From a virus (taxonomy: Duplodnaviria; Heunggongvirae; Uroviricota; Caudoviricetes), in IMG/VR virus record IMGVR_UViG_2923360383_000008: a stretch of DNA of 41,720 nt; one strand, given 5' to 3'. A model generated the notes under the pieces. The model was not told where the DNA came from, ran no database searches, and saw only the letters and a program-made list of their open reading frames with translations. A program made the translations under genes and the position numbers. This document shows positions 4,993-11,172 of the stretch, piece after piece. Every line of letters starts with the position of its first letter. Position 1 is the stretch's first letter.

Positions 4993-5125
4993 TTTTTGGG
5001 ACTCCTGGCTGATTAAGTATGTCGATAAGGCGTTTCCATCCGTCACGTAATTTACGGGTGATTCGTTCAAGTAAAGATTCGGAAGGGCAGCCAGCAACAG
5101 GCCACCCTGCAATGGCATATTGCAT
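4961..5125 (-). CDS. cIII: cIII, FtsH protease inhibitor
   Basis: Hand translation of minus strand gives [54 protein letters not shown], matching lambda cIII apart from one residue; not in ORF track because <60 aa. Confidence 0.85.
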   Translation of the reverse strand: MQYAIAGWPVAGCPSESLLERITRKLRDGWKRLIDILNQPGVPKNGSNNYGYPD

Positions 5126-5197
5126 GGTGTGCTCCTTATTTATACATAACGAAAAACGCCTCGAGTGAAGCGTAATTGGTATGCGGTAACGCCGCGC

Positions 5198-5566
5198 TCA
5201 GGCGGCCTTGATAGTCATATCATCTGAATCAAATATTCCTGATGTATCGATATCGGTAATTCTTATTCCTTCACTACCATCCATTGGAGGCCATCCTTCC
5301 TGACCATTTCCATCATTCCAGTCGAACTCACACACAACACCATATGCATTTAAGTCGCTTGAAATTGCTATAAGCAGAGCATGTTGCGCCAGCATGATTA
5401 ATACAGCATTTAATACAGAGCCGTGTTTATTGAGTCGGTATTCAGAGTCTGACCAGAAATTATTAATCTGGTGAAGTTTTTCCTCTGTCATTACGTCATG
5501 GTCAATTTCAATTTCTATTGATGCTTTCCAGTCGTAATCAATGATGTATTTTTTGATGTTTGACAT
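5198..5566 (-). CDS. ea10: Ea10-like early protein
   Basis: 122-aa ORF at the position and size of lambda ea10 between cIII and ral. Confidence 0.6.
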   Translation of the reverse strand: MSNIKKYIIDYDWKASIEIEIDHDVMTEEKLHQINNFWSDSEYRLNKHGSVLNAVLIMLAQHALLIAISSDLNAYGVVCEFDWNDGNGQEGWPPMDGSEGIRITDIDTSGIFDSDDMTIKAA

Positions 5567-5748: not shown

Positions 5749-5949
5749 TCAGGCAGCTTTGTTGTTCTGTTTACCAAGTTCTCTGGCAATCATTGCCGTC
5801 GTTCGTATTGCCCATTTATCGACATATTTCCCATCTTCCATTACAGGAAACATTTCTTCAGGCTTAACCATGCATTCCGATTGCAGCTTGCATCCATTGC
5901 ATCGTTTGAATTGTCCACACCATTGATTTGTATCAATAGTCGTAGTCAT
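5749..5949 (-). CDS. ral: Ral restriction-alleviation protein
   Basis: 66 aa MTTTIDTNQWCGQFKRCNGCKLQSECMVKPEEMFPVMEDGKYVDKWAIRTTAMIARELGKQNNKAA matches lambda Ral. Confidence 0.85.
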   Translation of the reverse strand: MTTTIDTNQWCGQFKRCNGCKLQSECMVKPEEMFPVMEDGKYVDKWAIRTTAMIARELGKQNNKAA

Positions 5950-6162: not shown

Positions 6163-6744
6163 ATGAACAACTCATGGTGGCAGGAACTAATGCATTTTTT
6201 CCTGCAAGGAATGACACTTAAACAGTTGATTCATATGCTAATCATCCTGATCATATTGATTATTGTTATGCCGGTAAGCGTAAAAGAATGGATAAACCTG
6301 CATAATCCAGAAATCCTTCCTCATTACTGGATGTATTACATCCTGTTGTTTTGCGTTAGCTATGTGCTTAACGGCGTTGTTAATTCCGCTTATCACGCTG
6401 TGACTGAAAGAATTGAGGTATTCGCTGCTCAGAAGCGCAAATCTAAAGAAGAAAAATATGTGCAAGATTTGTTTGATTCGTTAACTCTTGGAGAAAGAGC
6501 GTATTTGGCATTCGCTGTAGCCGCTAATAACCAGCTACAAACGGAAAAGGGCGCTCATGAATCAATTTCATTGCTCAAAAAAGGACTCCTCGTTCGAAGG
6601 CCTCCTGCTGTTGGATATCCTGATACCGACCGTTTCGTTATCCCTGAAAGCTATAGACATGAGTGCTACATTAGGTTTGCCGGGAAGGCAGACAGCCTTA
6701 TGGATGAACTTATCGCTCAGGATAAGCATGGCAAAAACAAGTAA
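6163..6744 (+). CDS. sieB: Superinfection exclusion protein B
   Basis: 193 aa with N-terminal hydrophobic segment (LIHMLIILIILIIVMPV); rightward gene embedded in the leftward operon exactly as lambda sieB. Confidence 0.85.
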   Translation: MNNSWWQELMHFFLQGMTLKQLIHMLIILIILIIVMPVSVKEWINLHNPEILPHYWMYYILLFCVSYVLNGVVNSAYHAVTERIEVFAAQKRKSKEEKYVQDLFDSLTLGERAYLAFAVAANNQLQTEKGAHESISLLKKGLLVRRPPAVGYPDTDRFVIPESYRHECYIRFAGKADSLMDELIAQDKHGKNK

Positions 6745-6760
6745 TTAGCAAATGAATTTA

Positions 6761-7033
6761 TCATCTCGCCGTCAGTTGTTTTGATTTCCGGTAGCCTGCC
6801 GCGTAAAGAGCTACGTTCGGAAGACAAGTTGAACCTTCATATTTTCTGGTCAACGTTGTCAGAGTTATCACTTCTGCTCTCATTGCTGGTTTGAGCTTGC
6901 ATTGCAAGACCACTCGTGAAGGGGTTGGCCTGTGTAGCTTGTCGGAGCTGATCGCCTCCTGACTTTGCAGATTTGCGCGACGAGCTCTACGGCGAGAAGC
7001 TGCGGTGCCTTTAAATTCTGTTTTTCTGGACAT
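6761..7033 (-). CDS. N-like transcription antiterminator (P22 gp24-type C-terminus)
   Basis: 90 aa from MSRKTEFKGTAASRRRARRANLQ (arginine-rich motif) to ...VALYAAGYRKSKQLTAR; RBS GGGAGG 7 nt upstream; first gene downstream of pL; the longer ORF-track start is treated as leader. Confidence 0.75.
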   Translation of the reverse strand: MSRKTEFKGTAASRRRARRANLQSQEAISSDKLHRPTPSRVVLQCKLKPAMRAEVITLTTLTRKYEGSTCLPNVALYAAGYRKSKQLTAR

Positions 7034-7131
7034 GGATTCCTCCCGAATAAACTTTGGCGATGCAATCTCGAAGCTCCTCCTGAGACGGTTGCTTCGGCAT
7101 TGCATCCCACAGCTTATGTGGTTGGGTGATC

Positions 7132-7176
7132 TGGCTTTTCAGCCACGTAGTCGAGAGTCGACGTTGTTTAAAGAGC
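7132..7176 (-). promoter_or_regulatory. Putative nutL (boxA GCTCTTTAAA; boxB UGGCUGAAAAGCCA)
   Basis: In the pL transcript, a boxA-like GCUCUUUAAA is followed by a 5-bp stem with GAAA loop; near-identical arrangement downstream of cro. Confidence 0.4.
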
Positions 7177-7219
7177 CTGCCAGTCTGTTCCATTTGGCTT
7201 CCAGCGTCCTGCTGACGGT

Positions 7220-7265
7220 TAAATAGTACGATATGTACTTTACAAGATCAATACAATTTGTTGTA
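7220..7265 (-). promoter_or_regulatory. pL promoter with oL operator repeats
   Basis: Minus-strand -35 TTGATC (plus 7246-7251), 17-nt spacer, -10 TACTAT (plus 7223-7228); TACGATATGTA and TACAATTTGTTGTA inverted repeats overlap it. Confidence 0.45.
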
Positions 7266-7435: not shown

Positions 7436-7464
7436 GGCAAAGAAAACCCGGCGCTGAGGCCGGG
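7436..7464 (-). terminator. Intrinsic terminator ending the cI operon
   Basis: Hairpin CCCGGC-gctgag-GCCGGG followed on minus strand by TTTTCTTT, immediately downstream of the 250-aa gene. Confidence 0.5.
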
Positions 7465-7469
7465 TTGTA

Positions 7470-8222
7470 TTATGCTGCAAGTCTCTTAACCCAAGTCTCT
7501 CTTTTGGAGAATGGTAGAACTTGGCTTGATTCATGGAAGAGTAAGGAGAGTTGTTGCATTTGATCACCAATTGCTTCGCTGTCTATAACAACAAATCTGT
7601 TGTTATACTCCTCACTTGAAGCTTTAAGATCAATTAGTTTCCCAAGCAATGAGTAAGCACTATTCCAGCTTCCTCCGTGTTTCACGCTTGATGTAAAAAC
7701 GTATTTAGGTATGTCGGTTTTTATTGTTACAGGGACGGTAATTTGATGTCCACTCAAGCCATATACGTTTTCACGAAGAGAAAGTGCGTCTCTAAGCTCT
7801 GTGTGATATAGATAATCAATAACCATACTTTCAAACTTTTCAGCTTGAACTGGCTGATACCAGTCTAACGACAAAGTTGATGCGAGTATACCAGCTCTAA
7901 TTATGTTCGATGTAATCGCACCGACATCCTTTTCTGTTGCCCAAGCAATGATTTCTCCTCGAGCATTGAGTTCTGCGCCTTCTTTAAGCAGTAATTGTCG
8001 TATCTCATCAAGTCGTTTTTTGGTAAGCGAGATCCCTCTTGCCTCCATATTCATTAAGGCATCGCATCTGTCACTAACTAAATACCTACCATTGACTTCA
8101 CGGATAAAGGCACCGACATGCTCTCCATCATCACAGTAAGTGAATGGACTGATAATTCTCAAGGTCTTGCCTATTGGATGGCATTCGAAACCTAGTTGTG
8201 AGATCACTGTTGAGCACATCAT
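7470..8222 (-). CDS. Hypothetical protein, distal gene of rexAB-slot operon (candidate phage-exclusion factor)
   Basis: 250-aa ORF, ATGA-coupled to upstream gene; AT-rich relative to rest of prophage; no motif I recognise. Confidence 0.6.
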   Translation of the reverse strand: MMCSTVISQLGFECHPIGKTLRIISPFTYCDDGEHVGAFIREVNGRYLVSDRCDALMNMEARGISLTKKRLDEIRQLLLKEGAELNARGEIIAWATEKDVGAITSNIIRAGILASTLSLDWYQPVQAEKFESMVIDYLYHTELRDALSLRENVYGLSGHQITVPVTIKTDIPKYVFTSSVKHGGSWNSAYSLLGKLIDLKASSEEYNNRFVVIDSEAIGDQMQQLSLLFHESSQVLPFSKRETWVKRLAA

Positions 8223-8776
8223 ATTCCAAACCCCATTTGCCCCGACTCATCTTCAAGCGGTAAAGGTATTCTCCCAGAGTAAGTTATGTTCAGATGTTTA
8301 CAGAAGTAATTCCAATACCCTACCAGGTCATCTGGGTTTATGTCATCTTCGATTGGAAACGCTATTCTATCACTATAGTATCCAGCTTCTTCATAGTATA
8401 CATGGTAGTGAGCACCGTAAATGATATCTTGGTACTTCGGATGATCGACCTTGTAACTATTCGTGTGTTTGTCAAAGTGATAGGTATCTACCGCGAAAAC
8501 CCTCTTGTTATGATAGAAAGCAATAATATTTATTTTAGGGTAAGAAATCGGGTCATCAGGTTCTGAATCCTGATCTGGTTTCCATTTCAGTTCAAACTTT
8601 AGCCCTTGTATAGGTATACAATCCTCATCCAAGGGGATGATATGGGCTTGTAGCCACATATCAGAGCGACTTGGTTTCTGTTTCCATTTAACGCCAGAAA
8701 AGTTAACTATTTTTTTACAATAAAGTACTTTATCAACTTCTACTTGGCTTGGCTGATAATCATCTATTTTTGCCAA
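8219..8776 (-). CDS. Hypothetical protein, proximal gene of rexAB-slot operon (candidate phage-exclusion factor)
   Basis: 185-aa ORF beginning 40 nt downstream of cI stop; apparent TTG start (first ATG is codon 40), so start uncertain; acidic, Tyr/His-rich; no motif I recognise. Confidence 0.55.
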   Translation of the reverse strand: MAKIDDYQPSQVEVDKVLYCKKIVNFSGVKWKQKPSRSDMWLQAHIIPLDEDCIPIQGLKFELKWKPDQDSEPDDPISYPKINIIAFYHNKRVFAVDTYHFDKHTNSYKVDHPKYQDIIYGAHYHVYYEEAGYYSDRIAFPIEDDINPDDLVGYWNYFCKHLNITYSGRIPLPLEDESGQMGFGI

Positions 8777-8815: not shown

Positions 8816-9469
8816 TCACCCAAACGTCTCTTCAGGCCATTGGCTGGCGATAACTTTCCCCACAACGGAACAACTCTCATTGCATGGGATCATTGGGTAT
8901 TGTGGGTTTAGTGGCTGTAGAAACACCTGACCGCTATCCCTGATCAGTTTCTTGAAGGTAAATTCATCACCACCAAGTCTGGCTATGCAGAAATCGCCGG
9001 GCTCAACAGCTTGCTCAGGGTCAACCAGAATTAACATCCCGTCAGGAAAGCTGGGTTTGGAACCTGTTGGTGCGGTCATTGAGTTACCTTCAACCTCAAG
9101 CCAGAATGCAGAGTCACTGGCTTTTTTGGTTGTGCTTACCAATCTCTCCGCATCGCCTTTGGTAAAGGTTCTGAGTTCTGGAGAGAACATCCCAGCCTGA
9201 ACATGAGAAAAAACAGGGTACTCATATTGTTTTTTAACTGGGGCCGATGAGTATTCGCCAACAGGTGAAAATGTCCCGTCGTGGTTGAATGATATGTTAT
9301 CAATACCAAGGTATTTAAACACCACACCAATATCACTAAGAGATGGATGACGAGATCCGCGCAACCAGTGTCCAATCCCACCCTGCGTCATACCTAGCTC
9401 TTCGGCTAACTTCTCTTGAGTTATGCCGAGCTCTTTCATTCTGGATCTAGCCAGTTCATACCATTTCAT
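8816..9469 (-). CDS. cI: CI-type prophage repressor (HTH + LexA/S24-like autocleavage domain)
   Basis: C-terminal ~140 aa ([18 protein letters not shown]...GNSM...FKKL...[10 protein letters not shown]) matches lambda cI; N-terminal HTH ([22 protein letters not shown]) differs; start chosen at MKWYEL with AAGGA 7 nt upstream, ORF-track start is 9517. Confidence 0.85.
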
Positions 9470-9509
9470 TTTCATGTCCTTATTATTACGCTCTGTACTG
9501 GAACCATCC

Positions 9510-9560
9510 ATGCACAATGTGTATTTTTACTTGTATTCGCAAAGTACATATTGTATTTTT
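9510..9560 (+). promoter_or_regulatory. pR promoter with oR operator repeats (divergent pRM region)
   Basis: -35 TTGTAT (9531-9536), 17-nt spacer, -10 TATTTT (9554-9559); ACAATGTGT and TACATATTGTA inverted repeats of the same type as at oL. Confidence 0.45.
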
Positions 9561-9586
9561 TTATTCGTGTTTACTATGGAGGGCAT

Positions 9587-9802
9587 ATGAGCAACCTACG
9601 AAAATATCGAGAGTCACTGAATATCTCTCAAACAACACTTGCTAAGGCAGTTGGATGCACACAGGGAGCTATCGGACATTGGGAATCTGGTCGTCGCTTC
9701 CCAGACCTTAAAACATGCCGTGCTCTTGTTGCGTGCCTAAACAAGTTAGGCGCAAAAGTCAGTCTTGATGACGTGTTCCCGCCGGAACACAAAGCCGCTT
9801 AA
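9587..9802 (+). CDS. cro: Cro-like HTH (XRE family) regulator
   Basis: 71 aa; HTH QTTLAKAVGCTQGAIGHWESG; RBS GGAGGG before ATG; divergent from cI. Confidence 0.8.
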   Translation: MSNLRKYRESLNISQTTLAKAVGCTQGAIGHWESGRRFPDLKTCRALVACLNKLGAKVSLDDVFPPEHKAA

Positions 9803-9812
9803 TAAGCGGATC

Positions 9813-9858
9813 CGCTCTTTGTAACAACGGACATTCGTCCTACGTCGCTGAAAAGCGA
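9813..9858 (+). promoter_or_regulatory. Putative nutR (boxA CGCTCTTTGTAA; boxB UCGCUGAAAAGCGA)
   Basis: boxA-like CGCTCTTT followed by a 5-bp stem with GAAA loop, between cro and cII. Confidence 0.35.
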
Positions 9859-9943
9859 GTTCCAAGATATCTGACCAACTAAGGCCATATGCGTTTCCAC
9901 GCATACCTTTCAACTAACTATTCACTATTGGAAATCTTAAGAA

Positions 9944-10240
9944 ATGGAAAGAACAAGTTACAGCAAACTATCACAGCGTGACGTTGATCGCGCAGAAACA
10001 GATTTACTTATCAATCTGTCAGCTATTACCCAGCGCGGTCTGGCAAAGATGATTGGCTGTCATGAATCGAAGATAAGCAGAACGGACTGGAGATTTATTG
10101 CTTCGGTCTTGTGTGCTTTCGGAATGGCATCAGACATCAGTCCGATTAGCAGGGCTTTTAAGTATGCGCTTGATGGACTCACCAATAAAAAACGCCCGGC
10201 GGCAACCGAGCGTTCTGAACAAATCCAGATGGAATTCTGA
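9944..10240 (+). CDS. cII: CII transcriptional activator
   Basis: 98 aa; C-terminus LTNKKRPAATERSEQIQMEF matches lambda cII; N-terminal half divergent. Confidence 0.85.
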   Translation: MERTSYSKLSQRDVDRAETDLLINLSAITQRGLAKMIGCHESKISRTDWRFIASVLCAFGMASDISPISRAFKYALDGLTNKKRPAATERSEQIQMEF

Positions 10241-10272
10241 GGTCATTACTGGATCAATCCACAGGAGTCATT

Positions 10273-11172
10273 ATGACAAATACAGCAAAAATACTCAACT
10301 TCTGCAGAGGTAACTTTGCCAAACAGGAGCGTAATGTGGCAGATCTCGATGATGGTTACGCCAGACTATCAAATATGCTGCTTGAGGCTTATTCAGGCGC
10401 AGATCTGACCAAGCGACAGTTTAAAGTGCTGCTTGCCATTCTGCGTAAAACCTATGGATGGAATAAACCAATGGACAGAATCACCGATTCTCAACTTAGC
10501 GAGATTACAAAGTTACCCGTCAAACGGTGCAATGAAGCCAAGTTAGAACTCGTCAGAATGAATATTATCAAGCAGCAAGGCGGCATGTTTGGACCAAATA
10601 AAAACATCTCAGAATGGTGTATCCCTCAAAACGAGGGAAAATCCCCTAAAACGAGGGATAAAACATCCCTCAAATTGGGGGATTGCTATCCCTCAAAACA
10701 GGGGGACACAAAAGACACTATTACAAAAGAAAAAAGAAAAGATTATTCGTCAGAGAATTCTGGCGAATCCTCTGACCAGCCAGAAAACGACCTTTCTGTG
10801 GTGAAACCGGATGCTGCAATTCAGAGCGGCAGCAAGTGGGGGACAGCAGAAGACCTGACCGCCGCAGAATGGATGTTTGACATGGTGAAGACCATCGCGC
10901 CATCAGCCAGAAAACCGAATTTTGCAGGGTGGGCTAACGATATCCGCCTGATGCGTGAACGTGACGGACGTAACCATCGCGACATGTGTGTACTGTTCCG
11001 CTGGGCATGCCAGGACAACTTCTGGTCCGGTAACGTGCTGAGCCCGGCCAAACTCCGCGACAAGTGGACCCAGCTCGAAATCAACCGTAACAAGCAACAG
11101 GCAGGTGTGACAGCCTGCAAACCAAAACTCGACCTGACAAACACTGACTGGATTTACGGGGTGGATTTATGA
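10273..11172 (+). CDS. O: Replication initiator O
   Basis: 299 aa, lambda O length; contains ori iterons internally; RBS ACAGGAG. Confidence 0.95.
   Translation: MTNTAKILNFCRGNFAKQERNVADLDDGYARLSNMLLEAYSGADLTKRQFKVLLAILRKTYGWNKPMDRITDSQLSEITKLPVKRCNEAKLELVRMNIIKQQGGMFGPNKNISEWCIPQNEGKSPKTRDKTSLKLGDCYPSKQGDTKDTITKEKRKDYSSENSGESSDQPENDLSVVKPDAAIQSGSKWGTAEDLTAAEWMFDMVKTIAPSARKPNFAGWANDIRLMRERDGRNHRDMCVLFRWACQDNFWSGNVLSPAKLRDKWTQLEINRNKQQAGVTACKPKLDLTNTDWIYGVDL
10621..10760 (+). repeat. ori iterons (four ~19-bp ATCCCTCAAAACGAGGGA-type repeats) plus AT-rich tract
   Basis: Direct repeats atccctcaaaacgagggaaa / atcccctaaaacgagggata / catccctcaaattggggga / atccctcaaaacaggggga followed by an A-rich stretch, inside O. 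Confidence 0.85.

What the first reader, a model, noticed from the sequence alone, without database searches (positions are those of the whole stretch)
9813..9858. Candidate nutR: boxA CGCTCTTT plus boxB UCGCUGAAAAGCGA
Counterpart of the nutL candidate, located between cro and cII where nutR lies in lambda. The stem differs from nutL by a G/C swap that preserves pairing (UGGCU/AGCCA versus UCGCU/AGCGA), a covariation pattern expected of a functional RNA hairpin rather than chance.
Basis: seen in the sequence. Interest (0 to 1): 0.4.

Follow-up and report, generated by a model that had tools for sequence, protein, structure and literature searches.

The report
Phage nutR antitermination site, tetraloop boxB
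This is the ordinary rightward N-utilisation (nutR) RNA site of a Shiga-toxin-phage-like lambdoid prophage, already annotated in a sequenced relative; its one unusual detail is that the N-binding hairpin carries a true 4-base GNRA loop instead of the usual 5-base loop.

Summary
CGCTCTTT (9813-9820) and the hairpin TCGCT-GAAA-AGCGA (9845-9858) lie between cro and cII. A twin site sits on the minus strand between pL and N. The combined motif occurs exactly twice in the window, against 0 expected. The nutR reading is supported. The window encodes a Pfam N_peptide antiterminator. The boxA-to-boxB stretch is identical to the "putative N-utilization rightward" feature in the VT2-Sakai record. The region is 93% identical to H-19B nutR/tR1, which has been studied experimentally. 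Across 36 distinct related nut sites, every boxB and spacer-hairpin position stays paired, and 5 of 9 pairs change on both sides.

Two refinements. First, the site has the H-19B architecture: boxA, ACAAC, a spacer hairpin (GGAC-AUUC-GUCC), UACG, then boxB. Second, the boxB loop is a 4-nt GNRA loop (GAAA; GCAA in one relative), whereas H-19B, 933W and P22 have GACAA. In more than 300 locus observations from four partly overlapping sets, loop type tracked the arginine-rich motif of N without exception.

Verdict: an already known element. The tetraloop/ARM pairing may mark a separate specificity class. Interest is low.

The parts
9531..9559 (+). pR, the early rightward promoter (TTGTAT-17-TATTTT) that transcribes cro and nutR
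   Evidence: Position transferred from the VT2-Sakai annotation (L001 3632-3660) using the 98%-identical alignment with offset 5899. The operator-like 11-mer AAAGTACATAT is shared only with the pL region (2 hits, 0.02 expected). The simple sigma-70 scan did not list it.
9587..9802 (+). cro (71 aa)
   Evidence: Pfam HTH_3 4e-12. Annotated as cro in VT2-Sakai and in PhiR57_1.
9813..9820 (+). nutR boxA, CGCUCUUU
   Evidence: Matches the boxA consensus CGCUCUUUA (established knowledge). It is the first base range of the VT2-Sakai 'putative N-utilization rightward' feature.
9824..9828 (+). conserved single-stranded linker ACAAC, 5' of the spacer hairpin
   Evidence: A1, A3 and A4 are invariant, and C2 nearly so, in 36 distinct nut sites of the family.
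9829..9840 (+). spacer ('reducer'-type) hairpin GGAC-AUUC-GUCC
   Evidence: Present in the centroid fold. 3 of its 4 pairs change on both sides across relatives and 100% of cells pair. H-19B nutR is described as having two hairpins (PMC3526286).
9841..9844 (+). invariant UACG linker immediately 5' of boxB
   Evidence: Invariant in all 36 distinct sites.
9845..9858 (+). nutR boxB: stem UCGCU/AGCGA with a GAAA (GNRA) tetraloop; predicted binding site of the N arginine-rich motif
   Evidence: Stem covariation. Loop type tracks the N ARM type in every locus examined. Annotated as 'Putative NutR' in Salmonella phage g341c.
9888..9913 (+). tR1 region: hairpin UAUGCGU-UUCC-ACGCAUA plus tail; a Rho-dependent terminator candidate that N-modified polymerase must pass
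   Evidence: Annotated 'putative rho dependent terminator for pR transcript' in VT2-Sakai. Nearly identical to H-19B downstream of boxB. H-19B nutR/TR1 is a tested Rho-dependent terminator (PMC1950744). There is no U-run, so it is not listed as an intrinsic terminator.
9944..10240 (+). cII, the first gene whose expression depends on read-through of tR1
   Evidence: Pfam Phage_CII 7e-34.
7223..7251 (-). pL, the early leftward promoter (approximate)
   Evidence: Transferred from the VT2-Sakai annotation (L001 1355-1383) through the alignment. The operator-like 11-mer lies at 7231-7241.
7170..7177 (-). nutL boxA, GGCUCUUU
7150..7162 (-). nutL spacer hairpin GUCGA-CUC-UCGAC
   Evidence: Among close relatives only the loop varies (CUC, ACUC, ACAC, AUC, GCAC).
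7132..7145 (-). nutL boxB: UGGCU-GAAA-AGCCA
6761..7033 (-). N antiterminator gene (90 aa; ARM GTAASRRRARRANLQS)
   Evidence: Pfam N_peptide PF25694 1.5e-32 and PHROG 271. 98.9% identical to the annotated VT2-Sakai N. 42% identical to H-19B N, with a shared C-terminus CLPNVALYAAGYRKSKQLTAR.

Best explanation
The segment 9813-9858 is the nutR site of a lambdoid prophage whose early-control module belongs to the H-19B / 933W / VT2-Sakai group.

Proposed mechanism (inferred by homology):
1. The site is transcribed from pR as part of the cro mRNA.
2. The RNA forms two small hairpins. The 3' one, boxB (UCGCU-GAAA-AGCGA), is bound through its GNRA loop and U-A closing pair by the arginine-rich N-terminus of the phage's own 90-aa N protein.
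3. The spacer hairpin shortens the 24-nt spacer, bringing boxA and the ACAAC linker close to boxB.
4. N, with NusA (and here probably NusB/NusE on the consensus boxA, plus NusG), stays tethered to RNA polymerase.
5. The modified polymerase reads through the Rho-dependent tR1 region just downstream (about 9888-9913) and later terminators, turning on cII, O, P and the delayed-early genes.
6. nutL (7132-7177, minus strand) does the same for the pL operon.

What is shown here: the sequence elements, their positions, their conservation and covariation, the presence of a cognate N gene, and strict co-variation of loop type with ARM type.

What is inferred: binding, the Nus-factor requirements, and antitermination itself.
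For: Anatomy and position are as expected.

The composite motif occurs exactly twice, against 0 expected.

The boxA-to-boxB stretch is identical to the nutR feature annotated in VT2-Sakai. The same boxB is annotated as NutR in g341c. Homologous sites are annotated as nutR in 933W and mEp234.

The region is 93% identical to H-19B nutR/tR1. For that element, N plus NusA/NusG protect the spacer and boxB, and Rho-dependent termination has been demonstrated (PMC3526286; PMC1950744).

Covariation: 36 distinct nut sites, 324 of 324 cells paired, double changes at 5 of 9 pairs, slid controls only 26-48% paired. The regex that collected these sites did not require pairing of the variable positions.

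N is a Pfam N_peptide member.

The boxB loop type matches the N ARM type in all 164 loci chosen by N similarity. It also matches in all 143 loci chosen by nutR sequence alone that contain an N gene. The four locus sets share some contigs. This holds across several different cro alleles.

In one relative the loop changes from GAAA to GCAA, which is still GNRA.

The closing U-A pair is kept, or becomes U-G. Lambda N requires this closing pair (PMC12027372).
Against: No experiment on this exact tetraloop variant was found in the searchable literature. Function therefore rests on homology and covariation.

The whole 53-nt nutR does not fold much better than shuffles (z -0.98). Its minimum-energy structure pairs boxA with the 3' arm of boxB instead of forming boxB.

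From memory of Neely and Friedman 2000 (paper not held), boxA and NusB/S10 are dispensable in H-19B. The role assigned to boxA here is therefore uncertain.

The sigma-70 consensus scan did not pick up pR.
Confidence: 0.9

Rival explanations
1. The hairpins serve mainly as the Rho-loading (rut) and pause region of the tR1 terminator, not as an N-utilisation site. N would act elsewhere, or not at all, on the right operon.
For: In H-19B, Rho footprints on the nutR spacer, and the rut and nut sites overlap (PMC3526286). The region downstream is annotated as a Rho-dependent terminator in VT2-Sakai.
Against: The same composite motif sits after pL, where (for lambdoid phages generally) no overlapping Rho terminator is described. 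Loop type co-varies perfectly with the N ARM, which a rut site would not require. The two roles are not exclusive: in H-19B both occur at the same site.
Confidence: 0.05
2. The boxB-like hairpin is an intrinsic terminator or an mRNA-stabilising 3' hairpin for the cro transcript.
For: It is a G+C-containing hairpin about 40 nt after the cro stop codon.
Against: No U-run follows it (GUUCCAAGAU). The terminator scan lists nothing on the + strand at 9845-9858. The stem has only 5 bp (-6.5 kcal/mol). An identical architecture precedes, rather than follows, the N gene on the left arm.
Confidence: 0.02
3. The site is a real nut site, but boxA is vestigial: N acts with NusA only, as reported for H-19B, and the CGCUCUUU match is inherited rather than used.
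For: In relatives with the same boxB, boxA is degenerate (ACCUCUUU, CACCACUU). The H-19B and g341c nutL have no boxA at all. From memory, the H-19B boxA is dispensable (Neely and Friedman 2000, not held).
Against: All relatives with the 90-aa N keep a near-consensus boxA at both nutL and nutR: GGCUCUUU or UGCUCUUU at nutL, CGCUCUUU at nutR. This N lacks about 37 residues of the central part of H-19B N, so it may depend more on host factors.
Confidence: 0.3

Closest known systems
nutR of Stx2 phage VT2-Sakai (AP000422, feature 'putative N-utilization rightward')
   Same: boxA, spacer and boxB are identical base for base. cro, cI and cII are about 95% identical and N is 98.9% identical.
   Different: Nothing within the site. 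The VT2-Sakai feature is a sequence annotation, and I found no functional test of it.
nutR/tR1 of phage H-19B (and 933W, mEp234)
   Same: The order is the same: boxA, ACAA(C/U), GGAC-AUUC-GUCC spacer hairpin, UACG, boxB stem UCGCU/AGCGA, then a near-identical tR1 region. Overall identity is 93%. This element has been shown experimentally to be an N-utilisation site and a Rho-dependent terminator (PMC3526286, PMC1950744).
   Different: The H-19B boxB loop is GACAA (5 nt); here it is GAAA (4 nt). The H-19B boxA is CGCUAUUU; here it is the consensus CGCUCUUU. H-19B N is 127 aa with ARM RRRERLKAKALANG; here N is 90 aa with RRRARRANLQS.
Phage P22 nutL boxB with the gp24 (N) ARM peptide complex (PDB 1A4T)
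   Same: The stem core GCU/AGC and the U-A closing pair are the same. The loop is GNRA-like. The C-terminus of N is shared.
   Different: P22 has a GACAA pentaloop whose looped-out C contacts His7 and Arg11 of the peptide (PMC12550061). Here the C is absent and the residue aligned with Arg11 is Ala (my alignment; inference). P22 has no spacer hairpin.
Phage lambda nutR
   Same: It sits in the same position (after cro, before tR1 and cII). It has the same boxA, spacer, boxB logic, a 5-bp stem with a U-A closing pair, and a GNRA-fold loop (PMC12027372; established knowledge).
   Different: Lambda has the boxA CGCUCUUA, a short unstructured spacer and a GAAAA pentaloop. Lambda N belongs to a different sequence family from this N, and there is no detectable similarity in the ARM.

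Membership tests
Lambdoid N-utilisation (nut) site | A boxA element (consensus CGCUCUUUA) 5' of boxB on the early transcript | tested here: met
   CGCTCTTT at 9813-9820 and GGCTCTTT at 7170-7177 on the - strand. boxA alone is not above chance, but the composite motif is.
Lambdoid N-utilisation (nut) site | A boxB hairpin: short stem, U-A closing pair, GNRA-type loop | tested here: met
   UCGCU-GAAA-AGCGA folds at -6.5 kcal/mol with z -2.7. The closing pair is UA in 34 and UG in 2 of 36 distinct sites. The loops seen are GAAA or GCAA.
Lambdoid N-utilisation (nut) site | Position: one site downstream of pR after cro and before tR1/cII, a second downstream of pL before N | tested here: met
   Gene identities come from Pfam. 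Promoter and terminator positions were transferred from the VT2-Sakai annotation.
Lambdoid N-utilisation (nut) site | A cognate N protein with an N-terminal arginine-rich motif encoded by the same phage | tested here: met
   Window 6761-7033 (-), Pfam N_peptide 1.5e-32, ARM GTAASRRRARRANLQS.
Lambdoid N-utilisation (nut) site | Evolutionary conservation of the hairpin through compensatory changes | tested here: met
   100% of 324 cells pair, 5 of 9 pairs have double changes, and slid controls pair at 26-48%. Caveat: the alignment was anchored by hand on the invariant ACAA(C/T) and TACG flanks.
Lambdoid N-utilisation (nut) site | N- and Nus-dependent read-through of downstream terminators | not testable with these tools
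   This needs a reporter or in vitro transcription assay. It has been shown only for the H-19B homologue (PMC3526286, PMC4499122).
H-19B-type NUT architecture | Dyad symmetry (hairpin) within the spacer between boxA and boxB at both nut sites | tested here: met
   nutR has GGAC-AUUC-GUCC and nutL has GUCGA-CUC-UCGAC. 3 of 4 stem pairs covary.
H-19B-type NUT architecture | Sequence homology to H-19B nutR/tR1 | tested here: met
   93.3% identity over 104 nt; alignment.
H-19B-type NUT architecture | A GACAA pentaloop boxB (P22-like) | tested here: not met
   The loop here is GAAA at both nutL and nutR. It goes with a different ARM type.
H-19B-type NUT architecture | Independence from boxA, NusB and S10 | not testable with these tools
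   This property is recalled from Neely and Friedman 2000 (PMID 11123680, not held). Here boxA is consensus, which hints at the opposite.
Intrinsic (Rho-independent) terminator | A G+C-rich hairpin followed directly by a U-run | tested here: not met
   No + strand terminator-like site is listed at 9845-9870. The tail is GUUCCAAGAU.
Rfam RNA families | A match to a curated covariance model at its gathering score | tested here: not met
   The only hit in the window is Lambda_thermo at 5080-5138. Nothing matched at nutL or nutR, which says only that no Rfam model reached threshold there.

The most novel reading that the evidence does not exclude
The N/nut pair of this phage group (the 90-aa VT2-Sakai-type N and the 120-aa epsilon34/g341c-type N) would be a separate antitermination specificity class. 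Its boxB is a genuine 4-nt GNRA tetraloop rather than a penta- or hexaloop that mimics one. Its ARM has lost the basic residue (P22 Arg11, Lys in H-19B, Ala here) that contacts the looped-out base. As a result, these N proteins and the H-19B/933W N proteins would not cross-activate each other's nut sites, even though the rest of the site is nearly identical.
Probability: 0.4. Interest if true: 0.35.

Novelty: already known. Interest (0 to 1): 0.15.

Why it matters
As a nut site it only confirms that this prophage has a standard, intact N-dependent early switch. That is useful for annotation, because in Stx phages N-dependent read-through feeds into Q and toxin expression, but it is not new.

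The side observation is more useful. A one-base loop difference (GAAA versus GACAA) is perfectly matched to two ARM types, on an otherwise near-identical RNA scaffold. This gives a clean natural pair for studying how arginine-rich peptides distinguish a GNRA tetraloop from a GNRA-like pentaloop. It also bears on whether co-resident Stx prophages can cross-activate each other's early operons.

Tried and rejected
- **Rfam at gathering threshold:** no nut-related hit; only the cIII thermoregulator matched.
- **Full-text search for the boxB string:** only irrelevant papers.
- **Searches for literature on a VT2-Sakai-type nut or a natural tetraloop boxB:** nothing specific.
- **Neely and Friedman 2000, and the Weisberg and Gottesman review:** neither is held.
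- **PDB sequence search with N:** no match even at E up to 10.
- **Plain MAFFT alignment of nut sites:** it shifted the 3' arm of boxB between tetraloop and pentaloop sites. I replaced it with a length-normalised alignment padded with N.
- **First regex for relatives' nut sites:** it missed H-19B-type sites because it required GAAAA-like spacing and a boxA. I relaxed it.
- **Alternative pairing of boxA (CGCU/GGCU) with the boxB 3' arm (AGCG/AGCC):** this appears in the minimum-energy folds of both window sites. I considered it as a regulatory alternative structure and set it aside, because relatives with UGCUCUUU or ACCUCUUU boxA do not keep the complementarity.
- **Intrinsic-terminator reading:** rejected, because there is no U-run.

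Full report
**What is there.**
The window is a lambdoid prophage or phage. Over 9400-10300 it is 100% identical to Escherichia phages ev207, ev017 and PhiR57_1, and about 95% identical to Stx phages such as VT2-Sakai.

Around the finding the gene order is as follows:
- N at 6761-7033 on the - strand (Pfam N_peptide, 1.5e-32).
- Two accessory genes.
- A cI-type repressor at 8816-9475 on the - strand (HTH_3 plus Peptidase_S24).
- cro at 9587-9802 on the + strand (HTH_3).
- The finding itself.
- cII at 9944-10240 (Phage_CII, 7e-34), followed by O and P.

**Check of the observation.**
- The partner site is on the minus strand, about 40 nt downstream of the pL promoter transferred from VT2-Sakai. 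It has GGCTCTTT at 7170-7177 and TGGCTGAAAAGCCA at 7132-7145.
- An 8-mer boxA alone is no better than chance: 37 matches with up to 1 mismatch against 34 expected.
- The combined motif GCTCTTT-N15-35-GCTGAAAAGC occurs exactly twice, in the two expected places and orientations, against 0.00 expected.
- Each hairpin folds on its own as a 5-bp stem plus a 4-nt loop, with z -2.7 and -3.5.

**Finer anatomy.**
The 24-nt spacer is structured. Both sites read boxA, ACAAC, a small hairpin, UACG, then boxB.
- The spacer hairpin is GGAC-AUUC-GUCC (9829-9840) in nutR.
- It is GUCGA-CUC-UCGAC (7150-7162, - strand) in nutL. The sequences differ but the shape is the same.
- With the U-A closing pair formed, the boxB loop is GAAA. 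That is a canonical GNRA tetraloop, not a lambda-like GAAAA pentaloop.

**Identity with known sites.**
- The VT2-Sakai GenBank record annotates 'putative N-utilization rightward' and 'leftward' features, plus pR, pL, operators and a 'putative rho dependent terminator for pR transcript'. The boxA-to-boxB stretches of both sites are identical to the window.
- The 933W and mEp234 records annotate the homologous sites as nutR. Salmonella phage g341c annotates exactly TCGCTGAAAAGCGA as 'Putative NutR (similar to NutR Epsilon34)'.
- H-19B matches window 9812-9915 at 93.3%.
- H-19B nutR/tR1 is a standard experimental N-utilisation site and Rho-dependent terminator. [quoted passage not shown] N plus NusA/NusG protect the spacer and boxB, and Rho footprints on the spacer (PMC3526286; PMC1950744; PMC4499122).
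- From memory, Neely and Friedman 2000 (PMID 11123680, not held) named the spacer dyad the 'reducer'. They showed that its pairing, not its sequence, matters, and that H-19B N does not need boxA, NusB or S10.

**Comparative evidence.**
I gathered 160 viral contigs by similarity to the window N and to the g341c N. I gathered 236 more by exact match to the two nutR variants. These sets share some contigs.
- A regex that fixed only UACG, the GCU/AGC stem core and the GA(C)AA loop collected 72 distinct nut sequences. It did not constrain the two outer boxB pairs or any spacer-hairpin position.
- After length normalisation there were 36 distinct rows. On these, all 324 pair cells form standard pairs.
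- 5 of 9 pairs show changes on both sides. The outer boxB pair occurs as UA, AU, GC and CG. The second pair occurs as CG and GC. The spacer stem occurs as GGAC/GUCC, GGGC/GCCC, GUCG/CGAC and GAUU/AAUC.
- Sliding the partner columns drops pairing to 26-48%.
- Caveat: I anchored the alignment by hand on the invariant flanks, and the rows are related sequences.

**The one non-standard feature.**
H-19B, 933W, mEp234 and P22 nutL have a GACAA pentaloop. The window, VT2-Sakai, g341c and epsilon34 have GAAA.

Loop type tracks the arginine-rich motif of N without exception.
- ARMs of the form RRR[AE][RH]RA..LQ always go with tetraloops at both nutL and nutR. This covers the 90-aa N of the window and the 120-aa N of g341c.
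- ARMs of the form RRRERLK.KA (the 127-aa H-19B type) always go with GACAA at both sites.
- This held in all 164 loci selected by N. It also held in all 143 loci selected by nutR alone that contained an N gene.
- The g341c N is informative. Beyond the ARM it is 82% identical to H-19B N. Its ARM is closer to the window type (69% versus 55%), and its boxB loops follow the ARM.
- The nutR module is joined to at least several different cro 3' ends. The match is therefore maintained across different immunity modules.
- In Shigella phage 75/02 Stx and three viral contigs, the nutL loop is GCAA. This is still GNRA, which supports the tetraloop reading.

**A structural rationale (inference).**
In the P22 N-peptide/boxB complex, the C of GACAA is looped out and contacts His7 and Arg11 (PMC12550061). 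In my alignment of the ARMs, the Arg11 position is Lys in H-19B-type N and Ala in every tetraloop-type N.

Lambda N likewise recognises a GNRA fold and the U-A closing pair (PMC12027372). Both features are present here.

**Mechanism.**
The steps are inferred by homology with H-19B, lambda and P22; the sequence features are shown here.
1. pR transcription through cro produces the NUT RNA.
2. The ARM of N binds the boxB tetraloop.
3. The spacer hairpin compacts the site.
4. NusA, and probably NusB/NusE on the consensus boxA, join the complex.
5. The complex stays on RNA polymerase and suppresses Rho-dependent termination in the tR1 region (9888-9913) and at later terminators.

The tR1 region differs from H-19B at only a few positions downstream of boxB.

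Whether boxA is used here is open.
- It is dispensable in H-19B and degenerate in g341c-type sites.
- All phages with the 90-aa N keep a near-consensus boxA at both sites.
- That N lacks about 37 central residues of H-19B N.

**Rivals.**
- An intrinsic terminator is excluded, because there is no U-run.
- A pure rut or pause element does not explain the twin site after pL or the ARM/loop co-variation.
- An alternative fold pairing boxA with the 3' arm of boxB appears in the minimum-energy structures. Relatives do not conserve it.

**Verdict.**
The element is an already known and already annotated nutR of the VT2-Sakai / H-19B group, so interest is low.

The most novel reading left open is that the tetraloop boxB plus Ala-type ARM forms its own specificity class, distinct from H-19B and P22. 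That would be a modest but clean result for peptide-RNA recognition. It can be tested with simple reporters.

Noticed in passing
window 7470-8776 (- strand): Two co-oriented genes sit in the 'rex position' between cI and pL. One is 185 aa (8219-8776; DUF6978 below threshold; PADLOC PDC-M24A 5e-4). The other is 250 aa (7470-8222; DUF1828 5e-8; PADLOC PDC-M24B 5e-10). A terminator-like hairpin follows at 7445-7466. This is a candidate prophage-encoded defence pair.
   Followed up: partly
window 9795-9809 (+ strand): A 6-bp hairpin, CCGCUU-AAU-AAGCGG, spans the cro stop codon (TAA at 9800-9802) and ends 3 nt before boxA. It is shared with VT2-Sakai (same cro allele) and absent from H-19B and 933W. 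On the minus strand it is scored as a weak terminator-like site, and it would lie in the path of a pRE transcript.
   Followed up: no
window 9813-9816 with 9854-9857, and 7174-7177 with 7133-7136 (- strand): In both nut sites, the first four bases of boxA equal bases 2-5 of the boxB 5' arm (CGCU in nutR, GGCU in nutL). boxA can therefore pair with the boxB 3' arm in the minimum-energy fold. Relatives with UGCUCUUU or ACCUCUUU boxA do not keep this.
   Followed up: partly
window 6761-7033 (- strand), compared with L002 2241-2624: The window N (90 aa) lacks about 37 central residues present in H-19B N (127 aa). It is always accompanied by near-consensus boxA elements at both nut sites, whereas the longer N types often are not.
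   Followed up: partly
L002 (H-19B) and L005 (g341c), upstream of N: The nutL sites of H-19B/933W and g341c-type phages have no boxA. In its place they carry a conserved hairpin, CACC-AGGRC-GGUG, about 10 nt upstream of the ACAAC linker.
   Followed up: no
L167 (phage HK629) 4303-4575: N proteins are modular. HK629 N has a phi21-type N-terminus and phi21-type boxB hairpins (loop CUAAC), but the same C-terminal CLPNVAIYAAGYRKSKQLTAR as the window N, H-19B N and P22 gp24.
   Followed up: no
window 5080-5138 (- strand): There is an Rfam Lambda_thermo (cIII thermoregulator) match at 88.5 bits. Nearby genes include Ral (5749-5949, - strand), an Ea10-like DUF2528 protein (5198-5566, - strand) and SieB (6163-6744, + strand).
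   Followed up: no
window 7034-7105 (- strand): An in-frame upstream ATG at 7105 would extend N to 114 aa. The start at 7033 was preferred for three reasons. It follows a GGGAGG Shine-Dalgarno sequence, it matches the VT2-Sakai annotation, and it matches the Pfam model from residue 1.
   Followed up: partly
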